The notes beneath the pieces were generated by a model. The model saw only the letters and a list, made by a program, of their open reading frames with translations, was not told where the DNA came from and ran no database searches. A program made the position numbers and the translations under genes. From Planctomycetota bacterium (lineage in GTDB: Bacteria; Planctomycetota; JACQVV01; JASMLP01), in NCBI GenBank assembly GCA_030748635.1, contig JASMLP010000001.1:13986-77985 (forward strand): a stretch of DNA of 64,000 nucleotides, written 5' to 3'. This document shows, one piece after another, positions 274 through 62,208 of the stretch. Position 1 is the stretch's first letter. Every line of letters starts with the position of its first letter.

Positions 274-1668
274 CTACTCCTGTTCCTCCAGAACATAGGG
301 ACACAGACACCAGGTATCACGATCCCGAAACAGACGAAGAACATGCTCACGACTCGAACCATTTTTCGATTGCAGTCGGACACGAATCTCGGCCCCGGCA
401 CCCTCGAGAGCCACATTCACGATCTTTTCTGATGTCCACCGCTCACCGAGTTCACCGAGAAGACAAAGAGCGTAATAGATCCGAATACTCGACTCATCAA
501 TCTTCGAATCAGGGCCGAAAATTCTCATCAAATATCGACTCTGAATCCAATCTCCAGATTCTTCTTCGAGGAAGATATCGACCTCCTCGTGGCGCTCTTC
601 CTTCGACAAGCCCTCCCCCTCGAGTTCTTCCCAACGAATCCAGGCGGAATCCCGATACATCTCGAACTCCGGGGACATATCGTGCCCATAGAAGGGGGCG
701 ATATGCTCACCGGCCACCTTCAAATGGCCTTCTCGTAGTGCGGACAGAAAAGAAAGTGCGATCTTGCCTACCCGATCACGCTCTCCCTTCTCTTCCTCCT
801 GTCGAATCTTCAACTTTTTCAGAGGTTCACGGAGTCGATCCAGGGTCACGGCAAACGCCATTCCCTGGCGTTCCGCCCCGACCATGCTCACGATACCGAT
901 CGCTTCTCCATGAGCATTCAACAGAGGGCCCCCACTATTCCCCAAATTGATCGGCACATCGACCTGAATATAGGGGATTCCCGCAAAGAGGCGTCTTCGG
1001 TGACTGATAATGCCGTGACTGAATGTGTGGAGAAGCGGTTCCTCACCGACATCGGGATGACCCAGGGTATACACCGAATCTCCAGACCGATACATGTCTT
1101 CGGGTACCAGAGGAATACCTGAACGGAGGTGTCGACGCCCCGTATCCAACACCACCGAATCGGCGCGAGAGTCCGCATAGAGAAGTCGGAACCCGGTTCC
1201 GGTCTGCTGTTCGAAGCTACCATCTTCCTTCAGGACGAAAAAAGTCAAAGTCCATCGTTTCCACGGAACAGGACCCGAGATGACATGAAAATTGGACAGC
1301 GCTTTTCGCCCATCTCCGATCAAAAAACCACTTCCCCATCCATCTTTCGCCTCGATGGTGATCACTCGAGGTGACACCGCATCATGAACATCACGACCCC
1401 GAAGTATCGGTCGTCCCTGAAGCTGAAGAGCGATATATCCCTCGTCCCCCAACGGTTCGGAAACGCTTCGAGCAGGAGCGAGATCGGAACCGGATCCGGA
1501 AAAATGTAGAAGCCGCGCCTGAAAACCCAGATAAAAGGTGGCGAAGAACAAGGAGAGAAAAAGAAACGATTTGAAGTACCGCATGGGGATTATCATGAAC
1601 CACCCTCTAGGACTGGTCAATGGAAGCTCTAAGCGCATTCCCCTACACTGCGATTCGAGATCTATCAA
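274..1668 (-). CDS. Trypsin-like (S1/HtrA-type) serine protease with N-terminal TM/signal segment and a C-terminal helical extension; probable true start near 1596 or 1584
   Basis: The motifs GSGFLIGDG...HV and [23 protein letters not shown] are typical of DegP/HtrA-class S1 proteases, and there is a hydrophobic N-terminus ([15 protein letters not shown]). The ORF is long and uninterrupted. Confidence 0.7.
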
Positions 1669-1670
1669 TC

Positions 1671-3695
1671 ATGCCACCTTTTCAACTCGTTTCACCCTAT
1701 GAGCCTCGTGGCGATCAATCGAGCGCCATCCATTCTCTGGTCCAGGATATCCAGAAGGGGAAATCCTCCTACCACACACTGCTTGGAGTCACCGGTAGCG
1801 GCAAAACATTCACCATGGCCAATGTCATCGAACGCCTGAAACTTCCCACGCTCGTACTCACTCACAACAAGACTCTGGCCGCCCAACTCTACAGCGAATT
1901 TCGTGACTTCTTTCCAGAAAACGCGGTGGAATATTTCGTCAGTTATTACGACTACTACCAACCCGAAGCCTATATACCCCAGCGAGACATCTACATCGAG
2001 AAGGATGCCTCGATCAACGAAAATCTGGACCGCCTCCGACTCGCAGCCACCAGCGCCCTTCTGACCCGAGAAGATGTAGTCATCGTATCGAGTGTTTCCT
2101 GTATTTACGGCCTCGGTTCCCCCTCGGACTACTCCAAGATGCTCGTTCGAATCGAAACCGGCGATGAGATGGATCGAGACGAACTCCTCGAAAAATTCGT
2201 CCTGATGCAATATGAACGTGGAGATGTCGATTTCCGCCGAGGGACCTTCCGAGTGCGTGGTGATGTGGTCGAAATCTTCCCCTCTTACCAGCAAGAGCAA
2301 TCGCTACGGATCGAATTCTTCGGCGATGAAATCGAATCCCTTCTGGAAGTGGATCCGCTTACCGGAGAGGTGCTCCAGGAGTTAGGCGCGATCACAGTCT
2401 TTCCAGCCAAGCATTTCGTACTCCCTCAGGAAAAGATCCAGAAAGCCGTCAGGAGCATTGAAGACGAACTTCTGCAGCATTTACAAACCCTCCGCTCTCA
2501 GGGGAAGCTTCTGGAGGCGCAACGCCTCGAGGCAAGAACCCGATACGACCTGGAAATGCTTCAGGAAGTCGGAAACTGTAAAGGGATCGAAAACTACTCT
2601 CGTCACCTGACCGGTCGAGCTCCCGGCGAGCGCCCAGATTGCCTTCTGGATTACTTTCAAGGGCCTTTCTTGACTATTCTCGATGAAAGCCATGTGACGG
2701 TTCCCCAGATCGGGGGCATGTTTGCAGGGGACCGGAGCCGGAAGAACACCCTGGTCGAGCACGGTTTCAGGCTTCCCTCAGCGCTGGACAATCGCCCCCT
2801 CTCTTTTCAGGAGTGGGAATCCGTTACCGGAACCACTCTCTTCGTCAGCGCCACACCCAATGATTATGAATTAAAACGCTGTGAAGGAGTCGTGGTTGAG
2901 CAGATCATCCGGCCCACCGGTCTCGTTGACCCGGTCATCCGGATAGAACCGGCAACCAACCAGGTTCCACACCTCATCACTGAAATACGCAAGCGCCGAG
3001 ATCTAAGCGAACGGGTCCTGGTTACCACACTGACCAAGAGACTCTCCGAAGACCTCTCTCTCTACCTGACAGAACAGGGACTCCGAGTACAATATCTACA
3101 CTCGGAGTTAGATGCCTTCGAGCGGGTCGAGATTCTCGAAGCCCTAAGGAGAGGAGAGTTTGAATGTGTCGTTGGAATCAATCTGCTCCGGGAGGGCCTC
3201 GACCTGCCCGAAGTGAGCCTGGTGGCAATTCTCGATGCTGACAAAGAAGGATTTTTACGTTCACAAACCAGTCTCATTCAAACCATCGGCCGCTGCGCTC
3301 GCCACGTAAACGCCGAGGTGATCCTGTATGCAGACCGCATGACCGGATCGATGCAACGAGCCATCGACGAGACCGAACGACGCAGGCAGATCCAGTTGAA
3401 TCACAACAAGATTCACGGAATTACTCCCCAATCGGTGGAAAAAGCTTTCAAACAGACCATCACCTACGAAGCGGAAGCCCACAAGGTGGTCCGGCGTGCC
3501 GTTAGCCCCGACCGGGACGACCGCAAACGAACAGCTGTACTCGAAGAACTCGAAAGAGAGATGCAGCAAGCCGCCAAGCACCTCGAATTCGAACGGGCCG
3601 CGGCACTTCGAGATCGTATCTTCGAGCTACGCAATCATCATCCAGCCACAAACAAGAAGCCGCCAGCTAGAAAACGAAGACGACGACGATCTTGA
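1671..3695 (+). CDS. uvrB: Excinuclease ABC subunit B (UvrB); the ORF opens at 1620 but the conserved N-terminus starts at [16 protein letters not shown]
   Basis: UvrB hallmarks [25 protein letters not shown] and [33 protein letters not shown], plus a C-terminal UvrB/UvrC interaction helix. Confidence 0.95.
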
Positions 3696-3977
3696 CTCAC
3701 CAGCAACCAAGATTTCATTACAAGGCGGAATTCCACCCCCTCTTGACGTGACATTTCACGCCGGGCATTTACCAAACTTGTGCCCCCTATATATATGAAA
3801 CTACATTTGCGTATTTTCTCCGAACGTGTAAAATCACCCCTCATTGTCTCGAGAAAGGTACGGTAACGGAGGACAGGGCTGGAGAAGAGAAAGCGGAAGT
3901 CCGGGTACTTCCCGGCGACCCGGCTTTCAGTGGACCGGCCAAGGCGGCACGAATGAAAACCGCCTAACAGCCAGGCA

Positions 3978-4005
3978 CGAATATGCACAAATACGTGCAC
4001 ATTCG
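3978..4005. promoter_or_regulatory. Imperfect 11-bp inverted repeat CGAATATGCAC-N6-GTGCACATTCG, with TGCAC/GTGCA half-sites resembling an NtrC-type enhancer (UAS)
   Basis: Dyad read directly from the sequence. It lies about 95-120 bp upstream of the sigma-54-like -24/-12 element at 4097-4112. Confidence 0.4.
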
Positions 4006-4096
4006 AACGGGCTCGTTCACTCCCCTCCTCAGCCGATTACCACAAAACAACCTTAAATCATTGATAAACAATAACTTAAAATAAAAAAACAGCCTT

Positions 4097-4112
4097 TGGC
4101 ATTGGTATTGCT
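4097..4112 (+). promoter_or_regulatory. Sigma-54 (RpoN) type promoter TGGCAT-N5-TTGCT, with GG and GC spaced exactly as in the consensus TGGCAC-N5-TTGCW
   Basis: The sequence tggcattggtattgct has GG at 4098-4099 and GC at 4110-4111. The region is AT-rich, and the probable start codon is at 4169. Confidence 0.55.
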
Positions 4113-4132
4113 CTAAGCACAATTCACGAATT

Positions 4133-5989
4133 TTGCCATTTCATTCGGTACCCTGGGGGAACGTTCAAATGATTCGCATCCGTCCTGTCCTTCTAACTCT
4201 TCTAACCATCGCTTTCCTGCTGCCCGCAGGCTCGATGGTCACCGCCCAAGACAACAACTCGGTACTTTCGCAGAAACGGCAGAAACTTCTCGACCGTTTC
4301 AAAACCGCTGACGAAGCCGAGCGCAATCAGATTCTGAGGGAGCTCATCCAGCTCAAACTCGAGGAAGAACGCCGCAAAGGCCGCACACTCGACACCCATA
4401 ATCGCCTCCCCTCAGCCGATGAGATTTCGAGGCACTTTGAGCCCAGCACCATCGATAGCATGCTCAACCCGGTACCGATCTCCAACTCTCTCGGGCTTGG
4501 AGGCGCACTGGCCGAAGACGGAGAGCTCTCCGACCGCGACATCCAGAAGCTGATCGGACTCGCTGCCAAAGATGGCATCACCGAAGAAGAAAAAGAGCAG
4601 CTTCGCCAGGTCGCCGAAGTCTACGAAGACGTCATGTCCGACGAAACCAAGGAGCAACTCGCCAAGGCCACCGGCGAAGAAGACACCGAATACAAGCTCA
4701 ACTCCGAAAAAGACACCTGGACCTCCACCTACTGGCCCATGGCCGGAAGTGGAATCGACGACAAGGGAAGAGCGACCAAGAATCTCTGGGCCGAAGGTGG
4801 CGCCATGACCAAGCTCGACAAAGTCATCGAATCCCGCACCGGCACCCCCGGAAACGCGTACGAAACCGAAAGTCGTCCCGCCCTCAACTGGCTCATCGAC
4901 GAACCCAAAGGATTCTGGATCGCCAACAGCACTCTGAGCGAGAAGGATGCCGAGCGGACCACTGGCGTCGACCTCAACCGAAACGGCAAGATCGATCCCG
5001 ATGTCGAATGGGATTTCATCGATTCTCGCGGAAATTTCGGTGAAGACGGCAAGATGGATGGCACCATGGGCGTCGGCTGGTGGGGTCGCTGCAACAACGT
5101 GGGTGTCGCCGGAACCCTCTTTGACGAGCCCAAACGGGCCGTGACCCTCGACGGACAGACCTTCAGCGCTGAAGAGATCAAAGGCCTTCTCGCCGTCTAC
5201 AGCGACACCGTCAACGAAGCCAAGGGAACCGAATTCGTCGGCAACCGTTTCGACGATCAACCCGATTTCCTGGTCACCAAGGACGGCAAGCAGTTGCGCG
5301 GCATCATCGAGAATGCCGGAGAACTCAACTTCAACTCCACCGACATGACTCGCGCCAACAACCCCCGTCTCGCCGACTACATGATCCTGGACAGCAAGGG
5401 CATCGGCGAAGATAAGGAAATCCGCTTCCGCGACCTCACGACCGGTGAAGTCACCACCTACAAGTCCAGCGAAATCGAACTCGTGGCCAAGGAAGACAAA
5501 AGCCAGGACACCGAAGCGGTTGTTTTTCACAACACCATGACCGAATGGCTGGCCGACGGTCGCGCTGGCGTCCTCGAAATGGATCCGAGCAGCCATGTCT
5601 GGAACTACAACTTCGAAAGCGCCGACGTCAAAGAGAGCAAAACGGCTCCTTACTGGGCCTCTGACCGCGAAAAGCTCGCCGGTTACAACGGCCCTCCGGG
5701 AGACGGCGAACTGACCTACGTCGACGCAACCGTCAAGTACGACGGCGGGGGCAAAACCCAACGCTACAAGTACTGGCTCGAAAAGGACGAAAACGGCAAC
5801 GTTGTGAACAGCGGCTGGGCCAGCAAGAACGTGGACTTCATGTGGCGCGCCAACGAGTCCGAAGTCGACTGGAGCCGCGAGGTTCCGGGTCACCCGAGCC
5901 TCAACGGTGAAATCCTCAAAGAACTCTACGAGAAAAGCACTGCCGAAGAAGCTCCGGATGCTGCCGAAGTCTCTGACGACAACGAATAA
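4133..5989 (+). CDS. Secreted protein of unknown function, paralogue A of a tandem three-gene family; likely start at 4169 (MIRIRPVLLTLLTIAFLLPAGSMVTAQ)
   Basis: Signal peptide, then a coiled-coil-like region. Conserved blocks shared with 7003-8802 and 8847-10619: NLWA.GGAM.K.D.VIE.RTG.PG.AYETE.RPALNWL, the Ca-loop-like DLNRNGKIDPDVEWDF, GTMGVGWWGRCNNVG.AGTLF and GSHVWNYNFESA. Confidence 0.85.
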   Translation: MPFHSVPWGNVQMIRIRPVLLTLLTIAFLLPAGSMVTAQDNNSVLSQKRQKLLDRFKTADEAERNQILRELIQLKLEEERRKGRTLDTHNRLPSADEISRHFEPSTIDSMLNPVPISNSLGLGGALAEDGELSDRDIQKLIGLAAKDGITEEEKEQLRQVAEVYEDVMSDETKEQLAKATGEEDTEYKLNSEKDTWTSTYWPMAGSGIDDKGRATKNLWAEGGAMTKLDKVIESRTGTPGNAYETESRPALNWLIDEPKGFWIANSTLSEKDAERTTGVDLNRNGKIDPDVEWDFIDSRGNFGEDGKMDGTMGVGWWGRCNNVGVAGTLFDEPKRAVTLDGQTFSAEEIKGLLAVYSDTVNEAKGTEFVGNRFDDQPDFLVTKDGKQLRGIIENAGELNFNSTDMTRANNPRLADYMILDSKGIGEDKEIRFRDLTTGEVTTYKSSEIELVAKEDKSQDTEAVVFHNTMTEWLADGRAGVLEMDPSSHVWNYNFESADVKESKTAPYWASDREKLAGYNGPPGDGELTYVDATVKYDGGGKTQRYKYWLEKDENGNVVNSGWASKNVDFMWRANESEVDWSREVPGHPSLNGEILKELYEKSTAEEAPDAAEVSDDNE

Positions 5990-6028
5990 AGAGCACCCAA
6001 ACACTCCAAACATCGGAGAAATCAAGAC

Positions 6029-6625
6029 ATGAAACCACTCACTATCCTCACGGCGATTCTTCTCGCCTTCTCCTCCACCGCGTTCTCCCAAGATGCGCTC
6101 AAGGAGATCGACAACCCACTCCAGGATGCCCGCGAAGGGGACACCGTCGAATACTCGATCGAGAGCGTCCTGCTCGACAGCCCGGTCGGAAAGAACGAGA
6201 AACGGACCAACACATCCTCGCTCTCGGTCGTGGAAATCGATCGTCAGCTCGTCAAGCTCGAGGTCAAAAGCGACATCCGAGAAGGCTCGCAGACGATCAG
6301 CTTGACCAGTCGGGGAAGCATCGCCGACCTGCTCACCGGCGCCTACCAAGACGTCAACATCTCATCGAGTTCGGTCACCGAAGAAACCGTCGAATTCGAG
6401 GGGAAGAGCTACGTGTGCAAGGTCATTCACCTCAAGTTCACCGCAAAAACCAAACATATGGGCATGACGGTCCCCGTCAAGGTCGACCAGAAAGTCTGGT
6501 ATTCCAATGAGATCCCGGTCCATGGCCAGTTCAAATCGGTTATCGATATGGAAATGACCATCCTCGGCGACAAGAAGACGCACTTTCAGACCACCACCAC
6601 TCTCAAGTCTTTCACCGAGGGGTAG
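6029..6625 (+). CDS. Small secreted protein (198 aa) of unknown function
   Basis: N-terminal signal peptide MKPLTILTAILLAFSSTAFSQ. Coding-like composition. Followed directly by a perfect hairpin terminator. Confidence 0.6.
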   Translation: MKPLTILTAILLAFSSTAFSQDALKEIDNPLQDAREGDTVEYSIESVLLDSPVGKNEKRTNTSSLSVVEIDRQLVKLEVKSDIREGSQTISLTSRGSIADLLTGAYQDVNISSSSVTEETVEFEGKSYVCKVIHLKFTAKTKHMGMTVPVKVDQKVWYSNEIPVHGQFKSVIDMEMTILGDKKTHFQTTTTLKSFTEG

Positions 6626-6646
6626 TCCGCAAAACGAGTCAAAGCG

Positions 6647-6680
6647 ATGGGCACCGGATCCCGGTGCCCATTTTCTTCAT
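6647..6680 (+). terminator. Rho-independent terminator ATGGGCACCGG-atc-CCGGTGCCCAT followed by TTTTCTTCAT
   Basis: Perfect 11-bp palindrome with a 3-nt loop and a downstream T-rich run, 20 nt after the stop codon of 6029-6625. Confidence 0.7.
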
Positions 6681-6753
6681 CTCAACAACTAAAGACCTTC
6701 ACCCGGATGAAAACCACTCCTGACTCACACGGGTCACCAACCAAGGAGCCCCG

Positions 6754-6918
6754 ATGAAGTACCCAGCCCTACAATCCAAGCGTGCCGGCGCCGGCATGAC
6801 CGAGTACATCATCATCGTCATTCTCATTGCGATCGCTCTTATCGTGGTCGTGACCAATTTTGGTTACCGACTTCAGGATAAAGGCGCCGAAGCCACGATC
6901 GAGGTCCAAAAGCTCTAA
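6754..6918 (+). CDS. Flp/Fap-family (type IVb, Tad-type) prepilin, 54 aa; below the 60-aa cut-off of the supplied ORF track
   Basis: MKYPALQSKRAGAGMTEYIIIVILIAIALIVVVTNFGYRLQDKGAEATIEVQKL contains the Flp processing motif G/AGMTEY (E at +5, Y at +6) followed by a hydrophobic helix. A strong SD (AAGGAG) sits 5 nt upstream of the ATG. Confidence 0.65.
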   Translation: MKYPALQSKRAGAGMTEYIIIVILIAIALIVVVTNFGYRLQDKGAEATIEVQKL

Positions 6919-7002
6919 GAACGGCTTTTACTCGGCTCGCGCTCTCTCCCGATTCATCCCCGATACGGGGACACTCTCGCCAGATAGCAGGTAAATCACA
7001 AC

Positions 7003-8802
7003 ATGAAGCTTCCAAAATCTCTCATTCAACCGTTCCTTCTCACGCTCGCGCTGAGCTTCGGGTGCCTCTTCCCGAACTCGGTCCAAGCTCAACAAGAAGA
7101 AGACAATGCTGAAGAACTCCGAAATCGCCGCCGGGAGCTGCTCAAGAAATTCGAGCGCTCCGACAGCAACTCATTCCGGGAACAGATCTACAAATATCTG
7201 ATCCGAATGCGGCTCAACGACAAGATCCGGGATCGAGCCAATTCGGACTACCTCCCCTCCGCCAGTGAAGTGGACGGATGGTTCGGGTGGGTTCCGGTTT
7301 CGAGCGCACTCGGACTGGGAGGCGCGCTCGCCAATGACGGGGACCTGAATGAGCGAGACATCCAGAAAGTCATCGGCCTCGTAGCCAAAGACGGAATCAC
7401 CCCCGAGGAGAAAGAGGACCTCCTCGACATCTACGACATGTACGGCGACACCATGACCACCGAGTCCCTCGAAGTCATGGAAGAGTTGATCGAAGGCGGT
7501 GACGATGAATCCAAGTACAAGCTGACCTCCAAGAATCCGACCTGGACCTCCACCTACTTCCCGATGGCCGGTAGCGGCATCGACGATGAAGGGGATTCCC
7601 AGGACAACCTCTGGGCCAAAGACGGCGCCATGCACAAGCTCGATAGCGTCATCGAGGAACGCACCGGCACTCGTGGCACCGCCTATGAAACCGAAAGCCG
7701 CCCCGCTCTGAACTGGCTTATCGGCGAGAAAAAGGGCTACTGGGTAGCCAACAGTCGGCTGAGCGAAAAAGACGCTGAACGGACCACCGGAGTCGACCTC
7801 AACCGAAACGGCAAGATCGATCCCGATGTCGAATGGGACTTCATCGATTCACGCGGCAACTTCGGCGAAGACGGCAAGAAGGACGGCACCATGGGCGTCG
7901 GCTGGTGGGGACGTTGCAACAACGTCGGGATCGCCGGCACACTATTCAAAGAGCCGAAGAAAGATGTCACCCTCAACGGCGTCACATTCACCGCGACCGA
8001 GATCAAAGGGCTTTTGTCTGTTTACAGCGACACGATCCTCAACTCCAAAGGCTCCGAATTCGAAGGCAGTCGTTACGACGACCGGCCCGATGAACTCGTC
8101 ACTCGAGACGGGAAACGCCTCTCGGGAGTGATTGAAAATGCTCGCGAACTTGACCTCGACGGCGAGGGCATGAAACGTTCGACCAACTACAGACACGGCG
8201 GAGACTACATCATTCTCGATGGCGACGCCCTGGAAGACCGAGGCAAAGACATTCGCTTCCGCGATCTCGCTACTGGCGAAGTCACCACCTATAAGCCCGA
8301 AGAGGTTCGCAGTGTGGCCAAGGAAGACTCCAAGCAGGACATCGAAGCCCGAGTCTTCCACAACAACATGACCGAATGGCTGGCGGACGGCCGGTCGGGT
8401 GTCCTCGAAATGGACCCGGGCAGCCATGTATGGAACTACAACTTCGAAAGCGCCGACATCCACGAAACCAAAACCCGCCCCCACTGGGCTCCGGAAGACC
8501 GTAAAGATCTACGCGGTTATGACGGCCCTCCGGGAGACGGCGAGATCACCTACGTTGAAGCGAGAATGCGGTATGACGGTGGAGGAAGCTCTCAGACCTA
8601 CCGCTACTGGATCGAGAAGAATCGCAGCGGCACAGTCGTCAACAGCGGCTGGAGCAGTAAGAACCCGGACTTCATGTGGCGAGCCAAGGAATCTGAAGTC
8701 GATTGGAGCCGCAAGGTTCCCGGCCACCCGAGCCTCGATGGTAACATCCTGCGTGAACTCTACGAAAAAAGCACCGCAGAAGATTCCTCCGACAACCAGT
8801 AA
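7003..8802 (+). CDS. Secreted protein of unknown function, paralogue B of the tandem family
   Basis: Signal peptide MKLPKSLIQPFLLTLALSFGCLFPNSVQA and the same conserved blocks as paralogue A. A 47-nt stretch (7794-7840) is identical at the DNA level to 4967-5013. Confidence 0.85.
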   Translation: MKLPKSLIQPFLLTLALSFGCLFPNSVQAQQEEDNAEELRNRRRELLKKFERSDSNSFREQIYKYLIRMRLNDKIRDRANSDYLPSASEVDGWFGWVPVSSALGLGGALANDGDLNERDIQKVIGLVAKDGITPEEKEDLLDIYDMYGDTMTTESLEVMEELIEGGDDESKYKLTSKNPTWTSTYFPMAGSGIDDEGDSQDNLWAKDGAMHKLDSVIEERTGTRGTAYETESRPALNWLIGEKKGYWVANSRLSEKDAERTTGVDLNRNGKIDPDVEWDFIDSRGNFGEDGKKDGTMGVGWWGRCNNVGIAGTLFKEPKKDVTLNGVTFTATEIKGLLSVYSDTILNSKGSEFEGSRYDDRPDELVTRDGKRLSGVIENARELDLDGEGMKRSTNYRHGGDYIILDGDALEDRGKDIRFRDLATGEVTTYKPEEVRSVAKEDSKQDIEARVFHNNMTEWLADGRSGVLEMDPGSHVWNYNFESADIHETKTRPHWAPEDRKDLRGYDGPPGDGEITYVEARMRYDGGGSSQTYRYWIEKNRSGTVVNSGWSSKNPDFMWRAKESEVDWSRKVPGHPSLDGNILRELYEKSTAEDSSDNQ

Positions 8803-8846
8803 CCCTTCCACTCCCGGCCCCCGTCACCTAATCACGAGACAAGATC

Positions 8847-10619
8847 ATGAAACGTAAGCGCCTAACAAGCAGATCCCGGCTCATCACGCTCTCATGCCTC
8901 GCCGCCACTCTCTGGAGCTTCCCGGCTCTGGGGCAAGAGCCGGAACTCGACGCGGCCACCAACGAGGCGTTGCGCGCGGAGAGAGAACGACTTATTGAGC
9001 GTTTCAATGCCACCGATTCTCGTTCCGAACGGCGAGCGATTCTCGAAGAACTCATCAAAATGAAGATGGACGACCGCGATCTGGACGTCGATGGACGGAT
9101 CCCCACCGCAGATGAAATTTCCGACTGGACGGGGACGATCGGGGTTTCCAACGCACTCGGCCTGGGAGCTCGCCTGGCCGACGATGGACGCCTGACTAAC
9201 CGCGACTTCCAGAACATCGCCGCTTTGGTTGCCAAAGACGGGGTTTCCAAGGAGGAGAAAAAAAGTCTCGCGGAACTAGTCGACCTCTACGGCGACACCA
9301 TGGGCAAAAGAACCCGGCGTCAATTCCGGAGCCTGATGCGCGACCGTTCATCCGCCTACACCGTTCGGACGAAGAACAAAACCTGGACTTCCAGCTACTT
9401 CCCGATGGCTGGCTGGAGCGCCAGCGACGAGGGATCTGCAAATCGCAACCTCTGGGCCAAAGACGGGGCCATGGCCAAAGTCGACAAGGTCATCGAGGCG
9501 CGCACCGGAGAGCCGGGAACAGCCCTCGAAACCGAACGTCGTCCCGCACTCAACTGGCTGGTCGACAAACCCACCGGCTATTACGTCCCCAGTTCGACGA
9601 TCCGGGAAAATGACGCGGAACGAACCACCGGAGTCGACTTCAACGGGAACGGTAAAATTGAAGACAACATCGAATGGGATTTCCTCGATTCACGCGGCAA
9701 CTTCGGCGAAGACGGAGAGAAGGACGGCACGATGAGTGTTGGCTGGTGGGGTCGTTGCAACAACGTAGGAATTGCCGGCACGCTGTTCAAAGAGCCCAAG
9801 AAGTCGGTTACCGTCGACGGAGTCACCTTCAGCGCAACCGAAATCAAGGGATTGCTGGCTGTCTACAGCGACACCATCGTCGATGCCAAGGGATCCGAAT
9901 TCCACGGCAACCGTTATGACGACCAACCCGACGTCATCGTAACCAAAGACGGGAAGGTCCACCGGGGAACCATCGAAAACGCTGGAGAACTGGACTTCTA
10001 TACCAACGGGATGTTCCGCCCCGGTCACCCTTCATGGAGTGACTTCACCATCCTCGACGCGAATGAACTCAAGCGTCAAGGCAAGGACATTGAATTCCGA
10101 AACATCGAAACCGGTGAAACCGAAACATTCAAGATTGACGACCTCAACCTCATCGGACGTGAAGACAAAAAACAAGACACCGAACCCATCGTGTTCCACA
10201 ACAACATGACCGAATGGTTGGCTGATGGTCGGGGCGGAGTACTCGAGATGGACCCGGGCAGCCATGTCTGGAACTACAACTTTGAAAGTGCCAACGTTCG
10301 GGAATCCACCCGCCGTCCCCGCTGGGCCCCACGCAAGAAAGAAGACCTCGTCGGATTCAACGGTCCTCCCGGAGAAGGTGAAATCACCTACGTATCAGCA
10401 CGCGTCAAATACAACGGGGGGGGTGGTACCCAAAACTACCGATACTGGATCGAACGAGATGAGGAAGGTAAAGTCCTCAACAGCGGCTGGATGAGCAAAA
10501 ACCCCGACTTCATGTGGCGCGCCAAGGAGACCAAGGTCGACTGGTCACGCGAAGTCCCCGGCCACCCCAGCCTCGACCCCGCGCTCATCAAAGAACTCTA
10601 CGAGAAGAGCACCGACTGA
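8847..10619 (+). CDS. Secreted protein of unknown function, paralogue C of the tandem family
   Basis: Signal peptide, and the same Cys (WWGRCNNVGIAGTLF) and His (GSHVWNYNFESA) blocks. Ca-loop variant DFNGNGKIEDNIEWDF. Confidence 0.85.
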   Translation: MKRKRLTSRSRLITLSCLAATLWSFPALGQEPELDAATNEALRAERERLIERFNATDSRSERRAILEELIKMKMDDRDLDVDGRIPTADEISDWTGTIGVSNALGLGARLADDGRLTNRDFQNIAALVAKDGVSKEEKKSLAELVDLYGDTMGKRTRRQFRSLMRDRSSAYTVRTKNKTWTSSYFPMAGWSASDEGSANRNLWAKDGAMAKVDKVIEARTGEPGTALETERRPALNWLVDKPTGYYVPSSTIRENDAERTTGVDFNGNGKIEDNIEWDFLDSRGNFGEDGEKDGTMSVGWWGRCNNVGIAGTLFKEPKKSVTVDGVTFSATEIKGLLAVYSDTIVDAKGSEFHGNRYDDQPDVIVTKDGKVHRGTIENAGELDFYTNGMFRPGHPSWSDFTILDANELKRQGKDIEFRNIETGETETFKIDDLNLIGREDKKQDTEPIVFHNNMTEWLADGRGGVLEMDPGSHVWNYNFESANVRESTRRPRWAPRKKEDLVGFNGPPGEGEITYVSARVKYNGGGGTQNYRYWIERDEEGKVLNSGWMSKNPDFMWRAKETKVDWSREVPGHPSLDPALIKELYEKSTD

Positions 10620-10671: not shown

Positions 10672-10702
10672 GGGCGGTCTATCCAGACCGCCCTCTTTTT
10701 TT
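10672..10702 (+). terminator. Rho-independent terminator GGGCGGTCT-atcc-AGACCGCCC followed by TCTTTTTTTG
   Basis: Perfect 9-bp GC-rich stem with a 4-nt loop, followed by a T7 run, 50 nt after the paralogue C stop codon. Confidence 0.8.
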
Positions 10703-10850: not shown

Positions 10851-13800
10851 CTACACCCGCTTGAGCACCGTAAGCGTCATGTCGTCATGCTGTTCCGCAT
10901 CCCCAACAAACCCCTCGATATCCTCGAACACCGACTCCACGAGTTCCCCCACATCCTTGGCTACATGACGCTTCAAGCTCTCCTTTAGACGATCGACCTC
11001 GAACATGGCCTCTTCGGAGTTGAGAGCTTCGCTGCATCCGTCGGTATAGAGCAACACCACATCACCTGGACTCAGATCGAGCTGTTTTTCCTGAATCATA
11101 TCGCCCACCTCGTCCTTGATCCCCAAGACGACTCCCCCGGCAGGGATCGCCTCGACAGTTTCGGTTTGAGAACGGTAGACCAGGAGATTTTCATGGCCAG
11201 CACCGGTATAGCAAATCGACTCTCCATCCCAGCGGACCAATAGCATCGACATGAAAACGAACGGTTCTGTATTCGCCTTCAGAATCCGGTTGGCCTCCAG
11301 CAAAACATCCCGGGTCGAAAGGTTCGACTCTGAAAGATGATGGAGCAACACCCGAGCCATCACCATCACCAACCCCGCCGGAACCCCCTTTCCACTGACA
11401 TCACCGATACAACTGAGGAGAGACTTCTGATCTTCTGAGAGGAGAAAGTCGTAGTAGTCGCCTCCGACCTTGCCTGCCGGGACCATCTTCCCATAGACCT
11501 CGAGACCGGCGATCTGAGGAATAACCTTGGGAAGCAGATTGGCTTGAATTCGACTGGCGATATTCAACTCCTGCTCAATCTTTTGCTTTTCCACCAACTC
11601 TTCGTAAAGAAACGCATTTTCCAGAGCGATGGCAACCTGATCGGCGAAGGCGACCAGAAGATCGAGGTCCCGGTCGGTAAACAGATCCTGGATAGATGGA
11701 TTGTCTACATACATCGCGCCGATAGTCTTGCCCTTCAAGGTGAAGGGGACGCAAAGGATACTCTTCAAACGCAAATTGCGAATCGACTCGGCCTGGAATT
11801 CCCCGTCCGCTTGCGCATCCGAGGTAAGCACCGGGTCTCCAGTCCGAATAACCTTGTGGACGATCGAGGTGCTCACCTCGAATTCAGGGTGATCGATCTG
11901 CTCTTTTTCCAGATTCCTCGCCGCCTTGAAAACAAACCCTTCATTTTCATCGCGGAGCATGAGAAAACCGCGCTCCGCGCGAATAACCTCCACCACGAGA
12001 TCCAAGACCATTTGAAACAATCGCTCACTATCTAGTGTGCTATTGATCACCTTGGTTACTTTTTGCAAAGCGAGAAGTCCAGTGCGCTCATCTCTGAGTT
12101 CTTCAACTTCGGCCAAAAGTGACTGATTCTTCCCCTCCAAAGCTTGCAGCTTTTGGGCCAAGGCCTCCTCGGAATCACGAATCCTTCTCTCGACATCCAG
12201 AATGAGTTCTTCAGCATTCATTAGCTTTACCTCGGCACGAATTCCTTCCAAAATATCATTAAAACTATCGGTAACCTCTAACTGAAGAGATCCGATTTCA
12301 TCGGAAAGGGCTCGCGAACGATCAGCCAGATCGAAGCGATGGTAGATCTCTTCTCGAGCCTTGAGAGACTCGCCCAAGAGCATCTGAGCCTTGCCGAGAA
12401 GATGATCTGCGCCCGCATCCTCAAAAATATCCCGGGCCTTTCGAAGATGATTGACCGCACTTTTTAGATATCCCCGATCACCCGCTTTTTCGGTCTCGAG
12501 CAAAAATCCCCCGTAGGCCAGATGAGTCCGTCCTTCCTCGAAGCGAGATCGAGTTCGGCCGAGCAAGACCAAGCTGGCCACGAAATGCTCAACCGCTTCA
12601 AGCCGGTAATTGTTAGCGATGCAAAAGAGTGCGTATTTTCGATACAAGATCCCCTGAAGGTTCTTCAAGTCCAGATCCTTCGATCGATCGAGGGCCTTGT
12701 TCAGAGTTTTGAGAGCCAGGCCGTGATTCCCCAACTTGATCAGAACATCCACGACACCGCTATAGACGGTTCCCAAAAGCCACTTCATCTGAACATCACG
12801 AAGCGTTTTTTCGGCCATAGCAAAAGAGGTCTTGGCCTTGCGATAAAGCCCCTCATCAGCAAACGCTTCACCCAAGTGGATGTAACAGATCCCAACAGCC
12901 CAAGGAACACGTGTGTCCTTGAATGTACGCATCGACTTGACCAGATATTCAACCGCCCTGGAAGCCTGCCCCTTCTTGACCAGGAGACGCCCAAGATTCA
13001 AACCACAGTAGGCTTCCGAAGATTTTCGTCCCATTTCCTGACTGCGCTCGATGGCCTGTTCATAGACCTCCTGAGCTCGGTCCAAGCGTCCATCCCACTC
13101 GAAAATCTGACCGATTCGGGCCTCGATCTCGACCATGTAAACACGGTCTCCAGTGAACTGGGCATGATAAAGCGCGTCCTCGAGAAATTTGTACGTAACC
13201 TCGAGGTCCCCATAGTGAAGATGAACACGCGCGATCCCGGCACTGATCCGTGACCTAAGATACCCCTCCCCTTCGGGGGGCAGTAGATCCAACGCGCGCT
13301 CCAGGTAGTTGATCGAGGTCGAAAACCGTCCCTGGAAAAAGTGGATGTCACCCAGATTTCCATAAATCGAGGCCAACAAGATCTCTCGGCCCGTACCTCG
13401 AACCAGTTCCAACGCCTCTTGAGCATAACGCTCACTCCGTCCGAGTTGACCTCGAGCCAGATAGATCCGTGAAATATGGTTAAGGACATCGGGGCGAACC
13501 TGCTGATCCTTGGACTCTTCCAGGAGACGCTTGAAACAACGCAAGGCTTCGTTGTACTGGTGTTTCCTGAAGTGCGCATAACCTAGGCCCTGAAGCGACT
13601 GATCCCGACTGTTTTCGGTTAGACCCGAACCAGTCAACGCTCGATTGTAAAACCGAATCGCTCGATCAAAATCGCCACCACGATTGTAAAGACTCCCGAG
13701 CTTTCCTTGGATCAATGCTCGACGCTCATCATCGCCAAGAGCCTCCGCGACCTCGATCCCTGTTTCGTAATAAGATGCCGCCCTCTGAGTCAGATAAGCC

Positions 13801-15950
13801 TTACGAAAACGATCGCCCAGATCGATGTACACATCCACAGCTCGATCTGGCCGACGGCTTCCACGATAGTGATGTGCCAGATTTTCAAGTTCAGACTCCT
13901 CCTGCTCGCCTTCTCGCCCCTCGAGATACGTCGCAATTCGATCGTGCAGCTTTTGCAAAGCCCGTCCCTTCGCATCCCAGGGACATAAATCCCTCAGTTG
14001 GGGAAAGACAGATCGATACTGAAGTCCTTCTGGCATCGAAATGGATTCGCACAGTTCAGCGCTCTCCAGATTTCCCAGAACAACTTTTGCCTGCGATTCT
14101 TTCAAACGTGTGATCTTCATGAGAAGGCCCAGATCACAGAGCGATCCGACCAGCGCCAAAGCCGACAACATCAACCGATCTTTCTTCTCCAGTTCCAACA
14201 CCCTATCTGGCAGTGAATTTTCGGAACGCAGAGGGCGCCTGATCTTCCGGACATCATCGACTTCGATCTGCCATTCACCACCCCGACGATAGATAAGTCC
14301 GTCCTCGGCAAGCCCATACATCGTTTCTTCGGCCAGAGCCGGATTCCCATCGGACAGTTCGGAAATCGCTTCGGGCAAGAACCCTGTGATCTCCTTCTGG
14401 TAAATCATGGATCCCAGAAAACTTCTCAAATCCTCTTGGCTCAACGGACCGATGTCGATTTCTTCCAGTATTCCCAGCGCTCTCCATTTCGGCAGAAACA
14501 ACTCGACTGGATGCTCTTTTCCTCCCCGAGGAAGTGGCCACGTACTCGAGGCCAGGAGCAATACCGGCCGATCAACCACCGCCTCTACCAGTTGCAAAAG
14601 AGTGTCGAAGTCCTCCTCCCCAAGCCGATCCAGATCATCGAGCAGGAGAACCACTGGCTGAGATTCAGAGAGGTAGGAGAAAAGACCCACCAGTTCGTGC
14701 GCCAAACGCTCCGGCGAAATATCTCCCTCTGGGCAAATACCTGACATCCAGGACCGCCGCCCCAATTCCGGCAGAAAATGAACCAGAGTTCCTCCCCATC
14801 GAGACGCGATTTCCGGCATCTGGTCCGGATTAGCCTGTTCGACATGAAGCAAACATTCCTGCGCCAAAATCACCAGCGACTCGAAAGGAGCCTCATGATG
14901 CTCAGAGCAGGAAACATGGGCAAGAATGACCGGCTCAGCGACCCACTCACCTCGGACCTCTTCCAGAATCCGAGTTTTCCCTACTCCGGTAACTCCCCGA
15001 ACCAGAACTCCTCGACAAGCCCCGCGTCGACACGAGACAAACGACTCTCGAATTTTGGCAAGAAGTGATTCACGACCCACAAAGCGGGGTCGATAGAGAT
15101 ACCGAGCCCCTTTTTCCGTACGGATGGCTGCGATTTCCGATCGTCCCGAAAGCTGTACCAGGTCCATCAGAAGTTCTTGTGCCGTCTGGTATCGATCTGC
15201 CGGGTCTTTCTCCAGGCAACGCAGGAGAATGCTCTCAAATCCTGGTGTCACATCCCGGTTGTACTTGGAGGGGGCAACCGCCTTGCTCTCGAGTTGCTTC
15301 ATCACAGCAGCCATCAGATCCCTGGATGTAAACGGCAGGCGCCCGGTGGCCAACTGATAAAACGTGACGCCGATACTGTAGATATCCGCTCGAGGATCGA
15401 CATCGAAACCCTTGATCAACTCGGGAGCCATGTATTCGATCGATCCCGCGATGTTGCTCTCACTGTCGTGAATCGATCGAGCCAAGTCGTGGGTCAAAGC
15501 GAAACCAAAATCCATCAACTTCACCGTCCCATCCGGAGTCACCCGGATATTCGCCGGCTTGAGGTCCCGATGAATGATTCCCTCGCAGTGGAAGTAATCG
15601 AGAGTTCGACAGATATCAGTCGCGATATCGATTACCCGCGGAATTCCTTCCTCGCCCAACTCTTCGTCCAGCCCTTTCCCGGGAACATACTCCATCGTGA
15701 AGTAGTTGCTGCCAAAATCGTACACCTTCACAATCCCTGGATGATCCAGTCGCGAAAGAGCCTCGAATTCCTCTCGAAGCCTCTGGAGATCTTTCTCTCG
15801 CTGAAGATCTTCTCGCAGCAACTTCAGGGCAATAGACTCCCCTTTCTGGCGATCGTGCACCAGATAGACAGTCCCCATTCCTCCCTCACCGAGAGTCCTT
15901 AATATTTCGTAACGGTCTTCGATAATCTGGCTTCGAGTCGATGTAGACAC
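10851..15950 (-). CDS. Giant multidomain signalling protein: N-terminal Ser/Thr protein kinase, then AAA/NB-ARC-like P-loop ATPase, TPR array, coiled coil, GAF domain and a C-terminal PP2C (SpoIIE-type) phosphatase
   Basis: Kinase motifs GEGGMGTVY, HRDLKPANI, DFG and APE. P-loop GVTGVGKT. Multiple TPR-like helices. A GAF-like region. The C-terminus carries the PP2C/SpoIIE metal-binding blocks GDVSGKGVPAG and YTDGCSEA. Confidence 0.85.
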   Translation of the reverse strand: MSTSTRSQIIEDRYEILRTLGEGGMGTVYLVHDRQKGESIALKLLREDLQREKDLQRLREEFEALSRLDHPGIVKVYDFGSNYFTMEYVPGKGLDEELGEEGIPRVIDIATDICRTLDYFHCEGIIHRDLKPANIRVTPDGTVKLMDFGFALTHDLARSIHDSESNIAGSIEYMAPELIKGFDVDPRADIYSIGVTFYQLATGRLPFTSRDLMAAVMKQLESKAVAPSKYNRDVTPGFESILLRCLEKDPADRYQTAQELLMDLVQLSGRSEIAAIRTEKGARYLYRPRFVGRESLLAKIRESFVSCRRGACRGVLVRGVTGVGKTRILEEVRGEWVAEPVILAHVSCSEHHEAPFESLVILAQECLLHVEQANPDQMPEIASRWGGTLVHFLPELGRRSWMSGICPEGDISPERLAHELVGLFSYLSESQPVVLLLDDLDRLGEEDFDTLLQLVEAVVDRPVLLLASSTWPLPRGGKEHPVELFLPKWRALGILEEIDIGPLSQEDLRSFLGSMIYQKEITGFLPEAISELSDGNPALAEETMYGLAEDGLIYRRGGEWQIEVDDVRKIRRPLRSENSLPDRVLELEKKDRLMLSALALVGSLCDLGLLMKITRLKESQAKVVLGNLESAELCESISMPEGLQYRSVFPQLRDLCPWDAKGRALQKLHDRIATYLEGREGEQEESELENLAHHYRGSRRPDRAVDVYIDLGDRFRKAYLTQRAASYYETGIEVAEALGDDERRALIQGKLGSLYNRGGDFDRAIRFYNRALTGSGLTENSRDQSLQGLGYAHFRKHQYNEALRCFKRLLEESKDQQVRPDVLNHISRIYLARGQLGRSERYAQEALELVRGTGREILLASIYGNLGDIHFFQGRFSTSINYLERALDLLPPEGEGYLRSRISAGIARVHLHYGDLEVTYKFLEDALYHAQFTGDRVYMVEIEARIGQIFEWDGRLDRAQEVYEQAIERSQEMGRKSSEAYCGLNLGRLLVKKGQASRAVEYLVKSMRTFKDTRVPWAVGICYIHLGEAFADEGLYRKAKTSFAMAEKTLRDVQMKWLLGTVYSGVVDVLIKLGNHGLALKTLNKALDRSKDLDLKNLQGILYRKYALFCIANNYRLEAVEHFVASLVLLGRTRSRFEEGRTHLAYGGFLLETEKAGDRGYLKSAVNHLRKARDIFEDAGADHLLGKAQMLLGESLKAREEIYHRFDLADRSRALSDEIGSLQLEVTDSFNDILEGIRAEVKLMNAEELILDVERRIRDSEEALAQKLQALEGKNQSLLAEVEELRDERTGLLALQKVTKVINSTLDSERLFQMVLDLVVEVIRAERGFLMLRDENEGFVFKAARNLEKEQIDHPEFEVSTSIVHKVIRTGDPVLTSDAQADGEFQAESIRNLRLKSILCVPFTLKGKTIGAMYVDNPSIQDLFTDRDLDLLVAFADQVAIALENAFLYEELVEKQKIEQELNIASRIQANLLPKVIPQIAGLEVYGKMVPAGKVGGDYYDFLLSEDQKSLLSCIGDVSGKGVPAGLVMVMARVLLHHLSESNLSTRDVLLEANRILKANTEPFVFMSMLLVRWDGESICYTGAGHENLLVYRSQTETVEAIPAGGVVLGIKDEVGDMIQEKQLDLSPGDVVLLYTDGCSEALNSEEAMFEVDRLKESLKRHVAKDVGELVESVFEDIEGFVGDAEQHDDMTLTVLKRV

Positions 15951-57533: not shown

Positions 57534-62208
<4,675 letters not shown>

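What the first reader, a model, noticed from the sequence alone, without database searches (positions are those of the whole stretch)
3978..4112. Near-consensus sigma-54 promoter with an NtrC-like upstream dyad controlling the paralogue array
TGGCAT-N5-TTGCT (4097-4112) matches the RpoN -24/-12 consensus, including the invariant GG/GC at the correct 10-bp register. About 100 bp upstream, CGAATATGCAC-N6-GTGCACATTCG (3978-4005) is an 11-bp dyad whose TGCAC/GTGCA half-sites resemble enhancer-binding-protein (NtrC-type) sites. An AT-rich tract that could bend DNA lies in between. A housekeeping sigma-70 promoter would be the default, so this implies regulated expression that depends on an activator ATPase.
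Basis: seen in the sequence. Interest (0 to 1): 0.6.

Follow-up and report, generated by a model that had tools for sequence, protein, structure and literature searches.

The report
Conserved sigma-54 promoter with upstream enhancer
A textbook-style sigma-54 promoter, with a conserved pair of activator-binding sites about 105 bp upstream, sits in front of a secreted transglutaminase-like gene in an uncultured planctomycete; it looks real, but it is an ordinary kind of switch on an unusual set of genes.

Summary
TGGCAT-N5-TTGCT lies at 4097-4112. It is the only such match in 64 kb and the top hit of a sigma-54 weight matrix. The dyad CGAATATGCAC-N6-GTGCACATTCG lies at 3978-4005, with 10 of 11 positions complementary. 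An AT-rich tract with phased A-runs lies between them.

Those upstream regions are otherwise unalignable, yet each keeps three things:
- the only GGCAY-N5-TTGC of its locus, 52-57 nt before the start codon;
- a TGCWC-N6-GTGCR dyad 104-107 bp upstream of the -24 GG;
- a second, weaker dyad 19-20 bp further downstream.

The dyad occurs nowhere else in 275 kb examined.

The gene served encodes a secreted GP42-type transglutaminase-like protein. It is followed by a 198-aa secreted protein.

"Controls the paralogue array" is only partly supported. A strong terminator hairpin at 6646-6672 separates that gene pair from the Flp pilin gene and paralogues 2 and 3.

"NtrC-like" holds for the half-sites only. 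The spacer is one base shorter than in the NtrC box.

No rpoN or activator gene was found in about 74 kb, so whether this genome has them remains untested.

Verdict: a new member of a known kind, of modest interest.

The parts
3984..3999 (.). Enhancer site 1: TGCAC-AAATAC-GTGCA. Its centre is about -131 from the predicted start of transcription.
   Evidence: Sequence. The only match in the window. The same dyad lies 104-107 bp upstream of the -24 GG in L001 and L002, and nowhere else in 275 kb.
4004..4019 (.). Enhancer site 2 (weaker): CGAAC-GGGCTC-GTTCA. It has the same N6 geometry and lies 20 bp downstream of site 1.
   Evidence: Sequence. It aligns with second sites 19 bp from site 1 in L001 (TGCTC-N6-GTGCG, 5755-5770) and L002 (CGATC-N6-GTGCA, 4287-4302). 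Inferred, and weaker than site 1.
4040..4092 (.). AT-rich tract likely to bend. A-runs start at 4044, 4055, 4066 and 4078 (about 11 bp apart), followed by A7 at 4083-4089. An IHF-consensus match TATCAATGATTTA lies at 4054-4066 on the minus strand.
   Evidence: GC 22-25%. The IHF pattern is one of four in 64 kb, against 1.2 expected. A similar block, CCTTAAAyC..TT..AACAAT, lies at the same offset (-37 from GG) in L002 but not in L001.
4096..4112 (+). Sigma-54 type promoter TTGGCATTGGTATTGCT, with -24 GG at 4098-4099 and -12 GC at 4110-4111.
   Evidence: 14.9 bits, top of the window. The core is conserved at L001 5847-5860 and L002 4380-4393.
4123..4168 (+). Predicted transcription start (about 4123) and a 46-nt leader. 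A Shine-Dalgarno GGGGG lies at 4155-4159.
   Evidence: Inferred from the rule that the start lies about 12 nt after the -12 C. The leader is unstructured (z = +1.65) and has no Rfam match. The -12 element ends 57, 56 and 52 nt before the start codon in the three loci.
4169..5989 (+). Paralogue 1: a secreted GP42-type transglutaminase-like protein, 606 aa, with a signal peptide.
   Evidence: Pfam PF16683. AlphaFold model with pLDDT 87. The only significant PDB fold match is the Phytophthora sojae GP42 transglutaminase 3TW5, E = 5.8e-8. Cys308 of the WWGxC motif is invariant in 54 homologues.
6029..6625 (+). A 198-aa secreted protein of unknown function, the conserved partner of the transglutaminase-like gene.
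   Evidence: No Pfam or NCBIfam match. It follows the homologous gene in L002 and L004. Only two relatives were found among 5.8 billion proteins.
6646..6681 (+). Intrinsic-terminator-like hairpin GAUGGGCACCGG-AUC-CCGGUGCCCAUU followed by UUCUUCAU.
   Evidence: Free energy -26.5 kcal/mol, z = -6.0.
6754..6918 (+). Flp/Fap-type pilin gene (54 aa).
   Evidence: Pfam PF04964, E = 3.9e-6 but below the curated cut-off. The gene order transglutaminase-like, 198-aa gene, flp is conserved in L002 and L004.
7003..8802 (+). Paralogue 2 (599 aa, 63% identical to paralogue 1). It has no promoter module of its own.
   Evidence: No sigma-54 site or dyad lies upstream.
8847..10619 (+). Paralogue 3 (590 aa), starting 44 nt after paralogue 2.
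10672..10700 (+). Terminator-like hairpin plus a T-run, closing the array.
   Evidence: Free energy -18.3 kcal/mol, z = -5.8.

Best explanation
Proposed mechanism: RNA polymerase carrying sigma-54 binds TTGGCAT-N5-TTGCT at 4096-4112 as a closed complex. An activator ATPase (a bacterial enhancer-binding protein) binds as dimers to two adjacent dyads of consensus TGCACG-N4-CGTGCA, at 3984-3999 and 4004-4019, which is 107 and 87 bp upstream of the -24 GG. The intervening AT-rich, A-tract-phased DNA bends and brings the activator to the polymerase; an IHF/HU-like protein may help. ATP hydrolysis then opens the promoter. Transcription starts near 4123.

The transcript covers a secreted GP42-type transglutaminase-like protein and a 198-aa secreted partner. 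Some read-through of the hairpin at 6646-6672 may extend it to the Flp pilin gene and paralogues 2 and 3.

Shown: presence of the elements, their statistical rarity, and their positional conservation.
Inferred: sigma-54 dependence, the start site, the looping, and the identity and signal of the activator.
For: 1. The motif is unique in 64 kb, against 0.04 expected. It is the top weight-matrix hit at 14.9 bits, within the range of the compiled seed promoters.
2. It lies in a 473-bp intergenic region, on the coding strand, 57 nt before an ATG that has a Shine-Dalgarno sequence and a signal peptide.
3. At two related genes in another Planctomycetota MAG, GGCAY-N5-TTGC occurs exactly once per locus: L001 5847-5860 (0.06 expected) and L002 4380-4393 (0.10 expected). 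Both are on the coding strand, 56 and 52 nt before the start codon. The proteins are 52-56% identical to the window protein and 63% to each other.
4. The dyad TGCWC-N6-GTGCR is found only upstream of these three genes in 275 kb. Its centre lies 107, 104 and 105 bp from the GG. A second dyad follows at 19-20 bp in each locus.
5. Anchored on the GG, three-way identity of the flanks is 9.5%, and GGCA and TTGC are the only invariant blocks.
6. The upstream neighbours differ in all three loci: uvrB, an alpha/beta hydrolase and a DtxR-family regulator. The module therefore travels with the gene.
7. The per-locus chance of both elements falling at those offsets is about 1e-8. These patterns were defined after seeing the sequences, so this figure is optimistic.
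8. rpoN and about 9-21 activator genes per genome are reported for cultured Planctomycetota (PMC2754498; PMC12316311).
Against: - No rpoN and no gene with a sigma-54 activator domain lies in the window or in 10 kb beyond it.
- The L002 site scores only 6.1 bits on the matrix, because it has C at -26 and G at -11.
- The conservation rests on three loci from two genomes. No further close relatives with upstream DNA could be found.
- A sigma-70-like TTGGCA-16-CACAAT overlaps the site.
- There are no transcript data.
Confidence: 0.8

Rival explanations
1. The promoter is an ordinary sigma-70 type (TTGGCA, 16 nt, CACAAT; 4096-4123). The conserved dyads are operators of a conventional repressor or activator.
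For: The consensus scan reports this pair with 9 of 12 matches. On its own, conservation of the dyads does not say which sigma factor is used.
Against: The -10-like hexamer is not conserved: the corresponding positions read TAACTG-like in L002 and TAAATC/TTTTCA in L001. GGCA and TTGC, at exact sigma-54 spacing, are invariant. Operators centred 105 bp upstream of a promoter are typical of enhancers and unusual for sigma-70 regulators. The scan found 3 such sigma-70-like sites against 1.9 expected in shuffles.
Confidence: 0.07
2. The sigma-54 promoter is real, but the dyads bind a different protein, such as a repressor or nucleoid protein. The activator would then act without DNA binding, or from sites elsewhere.
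For: Activators lacking a DNA-binding domain are known (my own knowledge: FlgR of Helicobacter, CtcC of Chlamydia, the latter from the same superphylum). No cognate activator gene is adjacent.
Against: The distance to the -24 element is fixed at 104-107 bp. The sites come as a tandem pair spaced about two helical turns apart. The half-sites resemble those of NtrC. All three features fit the classical enhancer layout.
Confidence: 0.08
3. Chance resemblance: neither element is functional.
For: The relaxed core GGCAYN5TTGC is expected 0.62 times per 64 kb. Coding sequence alone produces high-scoring false sites, for example the codons for SNLWAK and WWGRCN inside these same genes.
Against: Both elements recur at the same offsets in three loci whose surrounding DNA has diverged to background identity.
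Confidence: 0.03

Closest known systems
glnAp2-type sigma-54 promoters with NtrC enhancer sites (Enterobacteria)
   Same: A -24 GG / -12 GC promoter. Tandem dyad sites with TGCAC/GTGCA pentamers roughly 85-110 bp upstream of the -24 element (about 110-130 bp upstream of the predicted start). Activation at a distance.
   Different: The pentamers are 6 nt apart, not 7 as in TGCACCA-N3-TGGTGCA (PMC8743547). The two sites are 19-20 bp apart, not about three helical turns as recalled for glnAp2 (my own knowledge). The genes served have nothing to do with nitrogen. The phylum is Planctomycetota.
IHF-assisted sigma-54 promoters (nifH of Klebsiella, Pu of Pseudomonas putida; from my own knowledge)
   Same: A bend-prone AT-rich segment between enhancer and promoter. 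In the window, an exact WATCAANNNNTTR match is centred near -63.
   Different: The IHF core is not conserved in L002 and is absent in L001. Phased A-tracts could bend the DNA without any protein. Presence of IHF in this organism was not tested.
Sigma-54 / PilR control of type IV pilin genes (Pseudomonas, Myxococcus) and predicted sigma-54 control of pseudopilin genes (COG2165) in Planctomycetia and Myxococcia (PMC12316311)
   Same: Sigma-54 serving cell-surface or fibre genes. Here a Flp pilin gene lies in the same conserved cassette.
   Different: The promoter sits in front of the transglutaminase-like gene, not the pilin gene, and a terminator-like hairpin lies between them in the window. 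The pilin is of the Flp/Tad type. The PilR site motif, as I recall it, is different.

Membership tests
Sigma-54 (RpoN) dependent promoter | GG and GC doublets separated by exactly 10 bp, within TGGCAC-N5-TTGCW | tested here: met
   TGGCAT-N5-TTGCT at 4097-4112.
Sigma-54 (RpoN) dependent promoter | Weight-matrix score in the range of validated promoters and above the genomic background | tested here: met
   14.9 bits, rank 1 of 127,964 positions. Training leave-one-out lower quartile 13.8, median 15.8. L001 scores 13.8 and L002 only 6.1.
Sigma-54 (RpoN) dependent promoter | Conserved at orthologous or paralogous genes | tested here: met
   A single core match per locus, 52-57 nt before the start codon, in three loci.
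Sigma-54 (RpoN) dependent promoter | rpoN present in the genome | not testable with these tools
   Not in the 64-kb window or 10 kb beyond it. The rest of the MAG could not be reached. At phylum level, rpoN is reported in Rhodopirellula baltica (RB6491) and in the other Planctomycetia and Phycisphaerae genomes seen in the RpoN table excerpts.
Sigma-54 (RpoN) dependent promoter | Transcription start about 12 nt after the -12 C; no transcription without an activator ATPase | not testable with these tools
   Needs 5' RACE or dRNA-seq, and genetics.
Enhancer (upstream activating sequence) of a bacterial enhancer-binding protein | Dyad-symmetric site(s) roughly 80-150 bp upstream of the -24 element, usually in pairs | tested here: met
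   Sites centred 107 and 87 bp from the GG. The same layout holds in L001 (104 and 85) and L002 (105 and 86).
Enhancer (upstream activating sequence) of a bacterial enhancer-binding protein | A cognate activator gene that binds the site | tested here: inconclusive
   No GAFTGA motif or Sigma54_activat-type protein in the window, L001, L002 or the flank. The gene could lie elsewhere in the genome.
NtrC box | 17-bp palindrome TGCACCA-N3-TGGTGCA (pentamers 7 nt apart) | tested here: not met
   The pentamers are 6 nt apart in all six sites. No N7 version exists in the window.
IHF binding site | WATCAANNNNTTR in an AT-rich context between enhancer and promoter | tested here: inconclusive
   Exact match at 4054-4066 on the minus strand. 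Not conserved in L001 or L002.
GP42-type transglutaminase (Pfam PF16683), for the gene served | GP42 fold and a conserved catalytic cysteine | tested here: met
   PF16683 above its cut-off. Fold match to 3TW5, E = 5.8e-8, TM 0.61 over the target. Invariant Cys308, Asp472 and His476. Enzyme activity not tested.

The most novel reading that the evidence does not exclude
The module defines a previously unrecognised activator regulon in a rare planctomycete lineage. Sigma-54 would switch on a secreted GP42-type transglutaminase, its 198-aa partner and a Flp-type pilin as one surface-remodelling cassette, for example by covalently cross-linking Flp fibres or an adhesive matrix. The dyad TGCACG-N4-CGTGCA would be the recognition site of a new activator specificity class.
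Probability: 0.15. Interest if true: 0.55.

Novelty: new member of a known kind. Interest (0 to 1): 0.33.

Why it matters
Almost nothing about promoter use in Planctomycetota has been tested by experiment. This module is a ready-made, phylogenetically supported test case. It offers a sigma-54 promoter, a defined 16-bp enhancer motif that could be used to fish out its activator and regulon, and a link between sigma-54 and a bacterial relative of the oomycete GP42 transglutaminase that travels with a Flp pilin gene. This fits the published idea that sigma-54 mainly governs the cell exterior (PMC3162934). It does not change how sigma-54 is understood.

Tried and rejected
- More relatives with upstream DNA. 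The two closest metagenome contigs (L004, L005) begin 19 and 5 nt before the gene. The metagenome scan returned only 33-49% identical relatives. Those for which a source organism is known from the protein search are Myxococcota; the rest are unclassified. All of them lack both elements. The 198-aa partner has only two database relatives, both on short contigs.\n- Looking for rpoN or an activator gene. Motif and Pfam scans of the whole window were negative. Walking off the window gained 10 kb on one side, with an ECF sigma factor but no activator. The other side gained nothing.\n- Other high-scoring sigma-54-like sites, all rejected. 12162(-) lies inside the kinase gene. 30016(-) and 28354(-) lack the GG. 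CTTGGCCCAsAGGTTGC is the reverse complement of codons for SNLWAK, and CTGGTGGGGnCGTTGCA encodes WWGRCN.\n- A riboswitch or structured leader. None was found.\n- The dyad as an RNA terminator of uvrB. Rejected: it lies 283 nt after the uvrB stop, has no T-run, and only the DNA core is conserved.\n- A LexA/Cheo-box reading of CGAAC-N6-GTTC. Rejected, because the spacer is wrong and the site lies downstream of uvrB.\n- Published resources. The iPro54 supplement and the Barrios 1999 paper are not held. The file labelled as the promoter matrix of PMC12316311 holds protein motifs, so the matrix was rebuilt from the paper's S2 Table.\n- A sequence search of the PDB found nothing. The fold search did.

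Full report
**1. What is in the sequence**

- TGGCAT is at 4097-4102 and TTGCT at 4108-4112. That puts GG at 4098-4099 and GC at 4110-4111, the sigma-54 register.
- CGAATATGCAC (3978-3988) and GTGCACATTCG (3995-4005) form a dyad with a 6-nt spacer. It is 10 of 11 complementary.
- Between them, GC drops to 22-25% across 4040-4099, in a window that averages 54%.
- In that stretch A-runs start at 4044, 4055, 4066 and 4078, about 11 bp apart. An A7 run follows at 4083-4089.
- TATCAATGATTTA on the minus strand at 4054-4066 matches the IHF consensus WATCAANNNNTTR. It is one of four matches in 64 kb, against 1.2 expected.

**2. Is it more than chance within the window?**

- TGGCAYN5TTGCW occurs once in 64 kb on both strands, against 0.04 expected.
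- I built a 19-position weight matrix from 51 promoters of the published seed compilation. These were 23 classical E. coli promoters and 28 Desulfomicrobium RegPrecise entries, taken from the S2 Table of PMC12316311. The paper describes the compilation as experimentally validated, but RegPrecise entries are largely comparative-genomic reconstructions, so the reference set is mixed.
- The site scores 14.9 bits, first of 127,964 positions. Leave-one-out scores of the training promoters have a lower quartile of 13.8 and a median of 15.8.
- The other scores of 10 or more are not credible promoters. One lies inside the kinase gene (12162, minus strand). Two lack the GG. Others are by-products of conserved codons.
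- The core dyad TGCWC-N6-GTGCR occurs at one place, against 0.26 expected.

**3. Gene context**

The window comes from a Planctomycetota MAG; the genes carry locus tags QF752_00095, _00110 and _00115.
- Upstream lies uvrB (1620-3695, plus strand), followed by a 473-bp intergenic region.
- The gene served starts at ATG 4169. It has a GGGGG Shine-Dalgarno sequence and a signal peptide.
- It encodes a 606-aa protein that matches Pfam PF16683.
- Its AlphaFold model has pLDDT 87. The only significant match among solved structures is the Phytophthora sojae GP42 transglutaminase 3TW5, with E = 5.8e-8.
- Cys308, in the WWGxC motif, is invariant across 54 homologues.
- Next comes a 198-aa secreted protein with no family (6029-6625).
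- A terminator-like hairpin follows at 6646-6672, with -26.5 kcal/mol and z = -6.
- After it lie a 54-aa Flp-type pilin gene (6754-6918), paralogue 2 (7003-8802) and paralogue 3 (8847-10619).
- A second terminator closes the array at 10672-10693.
- A 1699-aa kinase-AAA-TPR-GAF-PP2C protein converges from the minus strand.

**4. The comparative test**

This is the main evidence. One other Planctomycetota MAG (JACQVV01, about 69% GC) carries two unlinked relatives, L001 and L002. Their proteins are 52-56% identical to the window protein and 63% identical to each other.

*Promoter*
- The core GGCAY-N5-TTGC occurs exactly once in each locus: L001 5847-5860 (0.06 expected) and L002 4380-4393 (0.10 expected).
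- In all three loci it lies on the coding strand. The -12 element ends 57, 56 and 52 nt before the start codon.
- L001 reads GGGGCACGCCAGTTGCT and scores 13.8 bits. The next best site in that locus scores 8.2.
- L002 reads GCGGCATGGATGTTGCG and scores only 6.1 bits, because of C at -26 and G at -11.

*Dyads*
- An alignment of the upstream regions brought out the dyad: TGCAC-AAATAC-GTGCA in the window, TGCTC-GAAAAC-GTGCA in L001, and TGCAC-GCGACC-GTGCG in L002.
- The distance from the dyad centre to the GG is 107, 104 and 105 bp.
- Each locus has a second dyad with the same N6 geometry, 19-20 bp downstream:
  - window: CGAAC-GGGCTC-GTTCA (4004-4019);
  - L001: TGCTC-ACGCTC-GTGCG (5755-5770);
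  - L002: CGATC-GGAAAC-GTGCA (4287-4302).
- The consensus of the six sites is close to TGCACG-N4-CGTGCA.
- The pattern occurs nowhere else in the 275 kb of window and loci held at that point.

*Independence of the surrounding DNA*
- Anchored on the GG, three-way identity of the surrounding 210 nt is 9.5%. GGCA and TTGC are the only invariant blocks.
- The upstream neighbours differ: uvrB, an alpha/beta hydrolase whose 3' end actually contains the L001 dyads, and a DtxR-family regulator. The module therefore belongs to the downstream gene.
- From base composition, the per-locus chance of both elements at those offsets is about 1e-8. The degenerate patterns were fitted after seeing the sequences, so this figure is optimistic, but the conclusion does not depend on it.

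*More distant relatives*

Homologues that are 33-49% identical and lack the N-terminal extension have neither element. Those with a named source are Myxococcota.

**5. Which genes does the promoter control?**

- The order transglutaminase-like gene, 198-aa gene, flp is conserved in L002 and L004.
- In L002 the three genes are separated by only 35-42 nt and no hairpin, so flp is probably co-transcribed there.
- In the window and in L004 a strong hairpin stands between the 198-aa gene and flp.
- L004 also has a TTGTCG-18-TATGAT candidate promoter before flp (read).
- No sigma-54 site, dyad or sigma-70-like site lies between 6626 and 7002 in the window.
- Control of paralogue 1 and its partner is therefore well founded. 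Control of flp and paralogues 2 and 3 would need read-through and remains open.

**6. Mechanism**

The layout is the classical one: two activator sites, a bendable segment, and a -24/-12 promoter.
- Enhancer sites are centred near -131 and -111, the AT tract near -63, and the predicted start near 4123.
- I infer that dimers of an enhancer-binding ATPase occupy the two dyads and assemble into the active oligomer. They then contact the sigma-54 holoenzyme by DNA looping and drive open-complex formation.
- The 46-nt leader is unstructured and matches no RNA family, so control appears to be at initiation.
- The activator and its signal are unknown.

**7. Comparison with what is known**

- The half-sites are those of the NtrC box TGCACCA-N3-TGGTGCA (PMC8743547), but the spacer is one base shorter in all six sites. 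Membership of the NtrC box therefore fails, although the element probably works in the same way.
- The IHF match is exact in the window but not conserved, so it is left as inconclusive.
- Sigma-54 is established in the phylum. Rhodopirellula baltica has rpoN (RB6491) (PMC2754498).
- A 2025 survey lists RpoN proteins for R. baltica and the other Planctomycetia and Phycisphaerae genomes seen in its table excerpts. It also gives 20 activator genes in R. baltica and class means of about 21.5 and 9.4 (PMC12316311; column meanings inferred).
- That survey predicts sigma-54 control of pseudopilin, secretion, stress and regulator genes in Planctomycetia. The passages I read mention neither this family nor this enhancer motif.

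**8. What remains untested**

- No rpoN or activator gene lies in the 64-kb window or in a further 10 kb. Attempts to walk further failed.
- The conservation of the -24/-12 element in two genomes is indirect evidence that sigma-54 is in use.
- There are no transcript data.

**9. Verdict**

The sigma-54-plus-enhancer interpretation is well supported in silico (confidence about 0.8). The reach over the whole paralogue array and the NtrC label are overstated. This is a new member of a known kind. It is useful as a defined regulatory handle in a poorly studied phylum and as a pointer to an odd conserved cassette of a GP42-like transglutaminase, a 198-aa partner and a Flp pilin. It is not surprising to a specialist.

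Noticed in passing
window 4169-10619; L002 4445-7183; L004 20-2753: A conserved cassette: a secreted GP42-type transglutaminase-like gene, a 198-aa secreted protein and a Flp pilin gene. The 198-aa protein has only two relatives among 5.8 billion database proteins. No tad/cpa pilus assembly genes lie in the 64-kb window.
   Followed up: partly
window 6646-6672; L004 2553-2593: Strong hairpins lie between the 198-aa gene and flp in two of the three cassettes, but not in L002. L004 also has TTGTCG-18-TATGAT before flp. The pilin gene may therefore have its own promoter or be controlled by attenuation.
   Followed up: partly
L008 about 4981, L010 about 2625, L015 about 4421 (minus strand): GAGGCACGACGGTTGCT, a sigma-54-like -24/-12 element, lies about 50 nt upstream of a pseudopilin gene (T2SSG/N_methyl). 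That gene is next to a more distant transglutaminase-like homologue (protein P0036; close relatives in the protein search are annotated Myxococcota).
   Followed up: no
window 5077, 7902, 9743 (plus strand); 9460 (minus strand); several loci: Conserved codons imitate sigma-54 promoters. WWGRCN gives CTGGTGGGGnCGTTGCA. The reverse complement of SNLWAK gives CTTGGCCCAsAGGTTGC, which scores up to 13 bits. This is a trap for weight-matrix scans.
   Followed up: yes
window 10851-15950 (minus strand), 33067-34368 (minus strand), 54600-56945 (plus strand): Three Ser/Thr kinase genes lie in 64 kb. One is a 1699-aa kinase-AAA_16-TPR-GAF-PP2C (SpoIIE) protein that converges on the paralogue array. It could be a signalling input, but it is not a sigma-54 activator.
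   Followed up: partly
window 60721-62208 and 44753-46927: A second, unrelated transglutaminase-superfamily protein (Transglut_core) follows the DNA ligase gene. There is also a PAS-GGDEF-EAL cyclic-di-GMP protein.
   Followed up: no
window 3946-3954 and 3974-3982: A direct repeat GGCACGAAT, 28 bp apart, lies just upstream of and overlapping the left arm of the dyad. It is not conserved in L001 or L002, and its meaning is unknown.
   Followed up: no
L039 16310-16861 and 14053-16152 (about 5-9 kb upstream of the window start): An ECF sigma factor gene lies next to a 699-aa protein with no Pfam match, possibly its anti-sigma partner.
   Followed up: no
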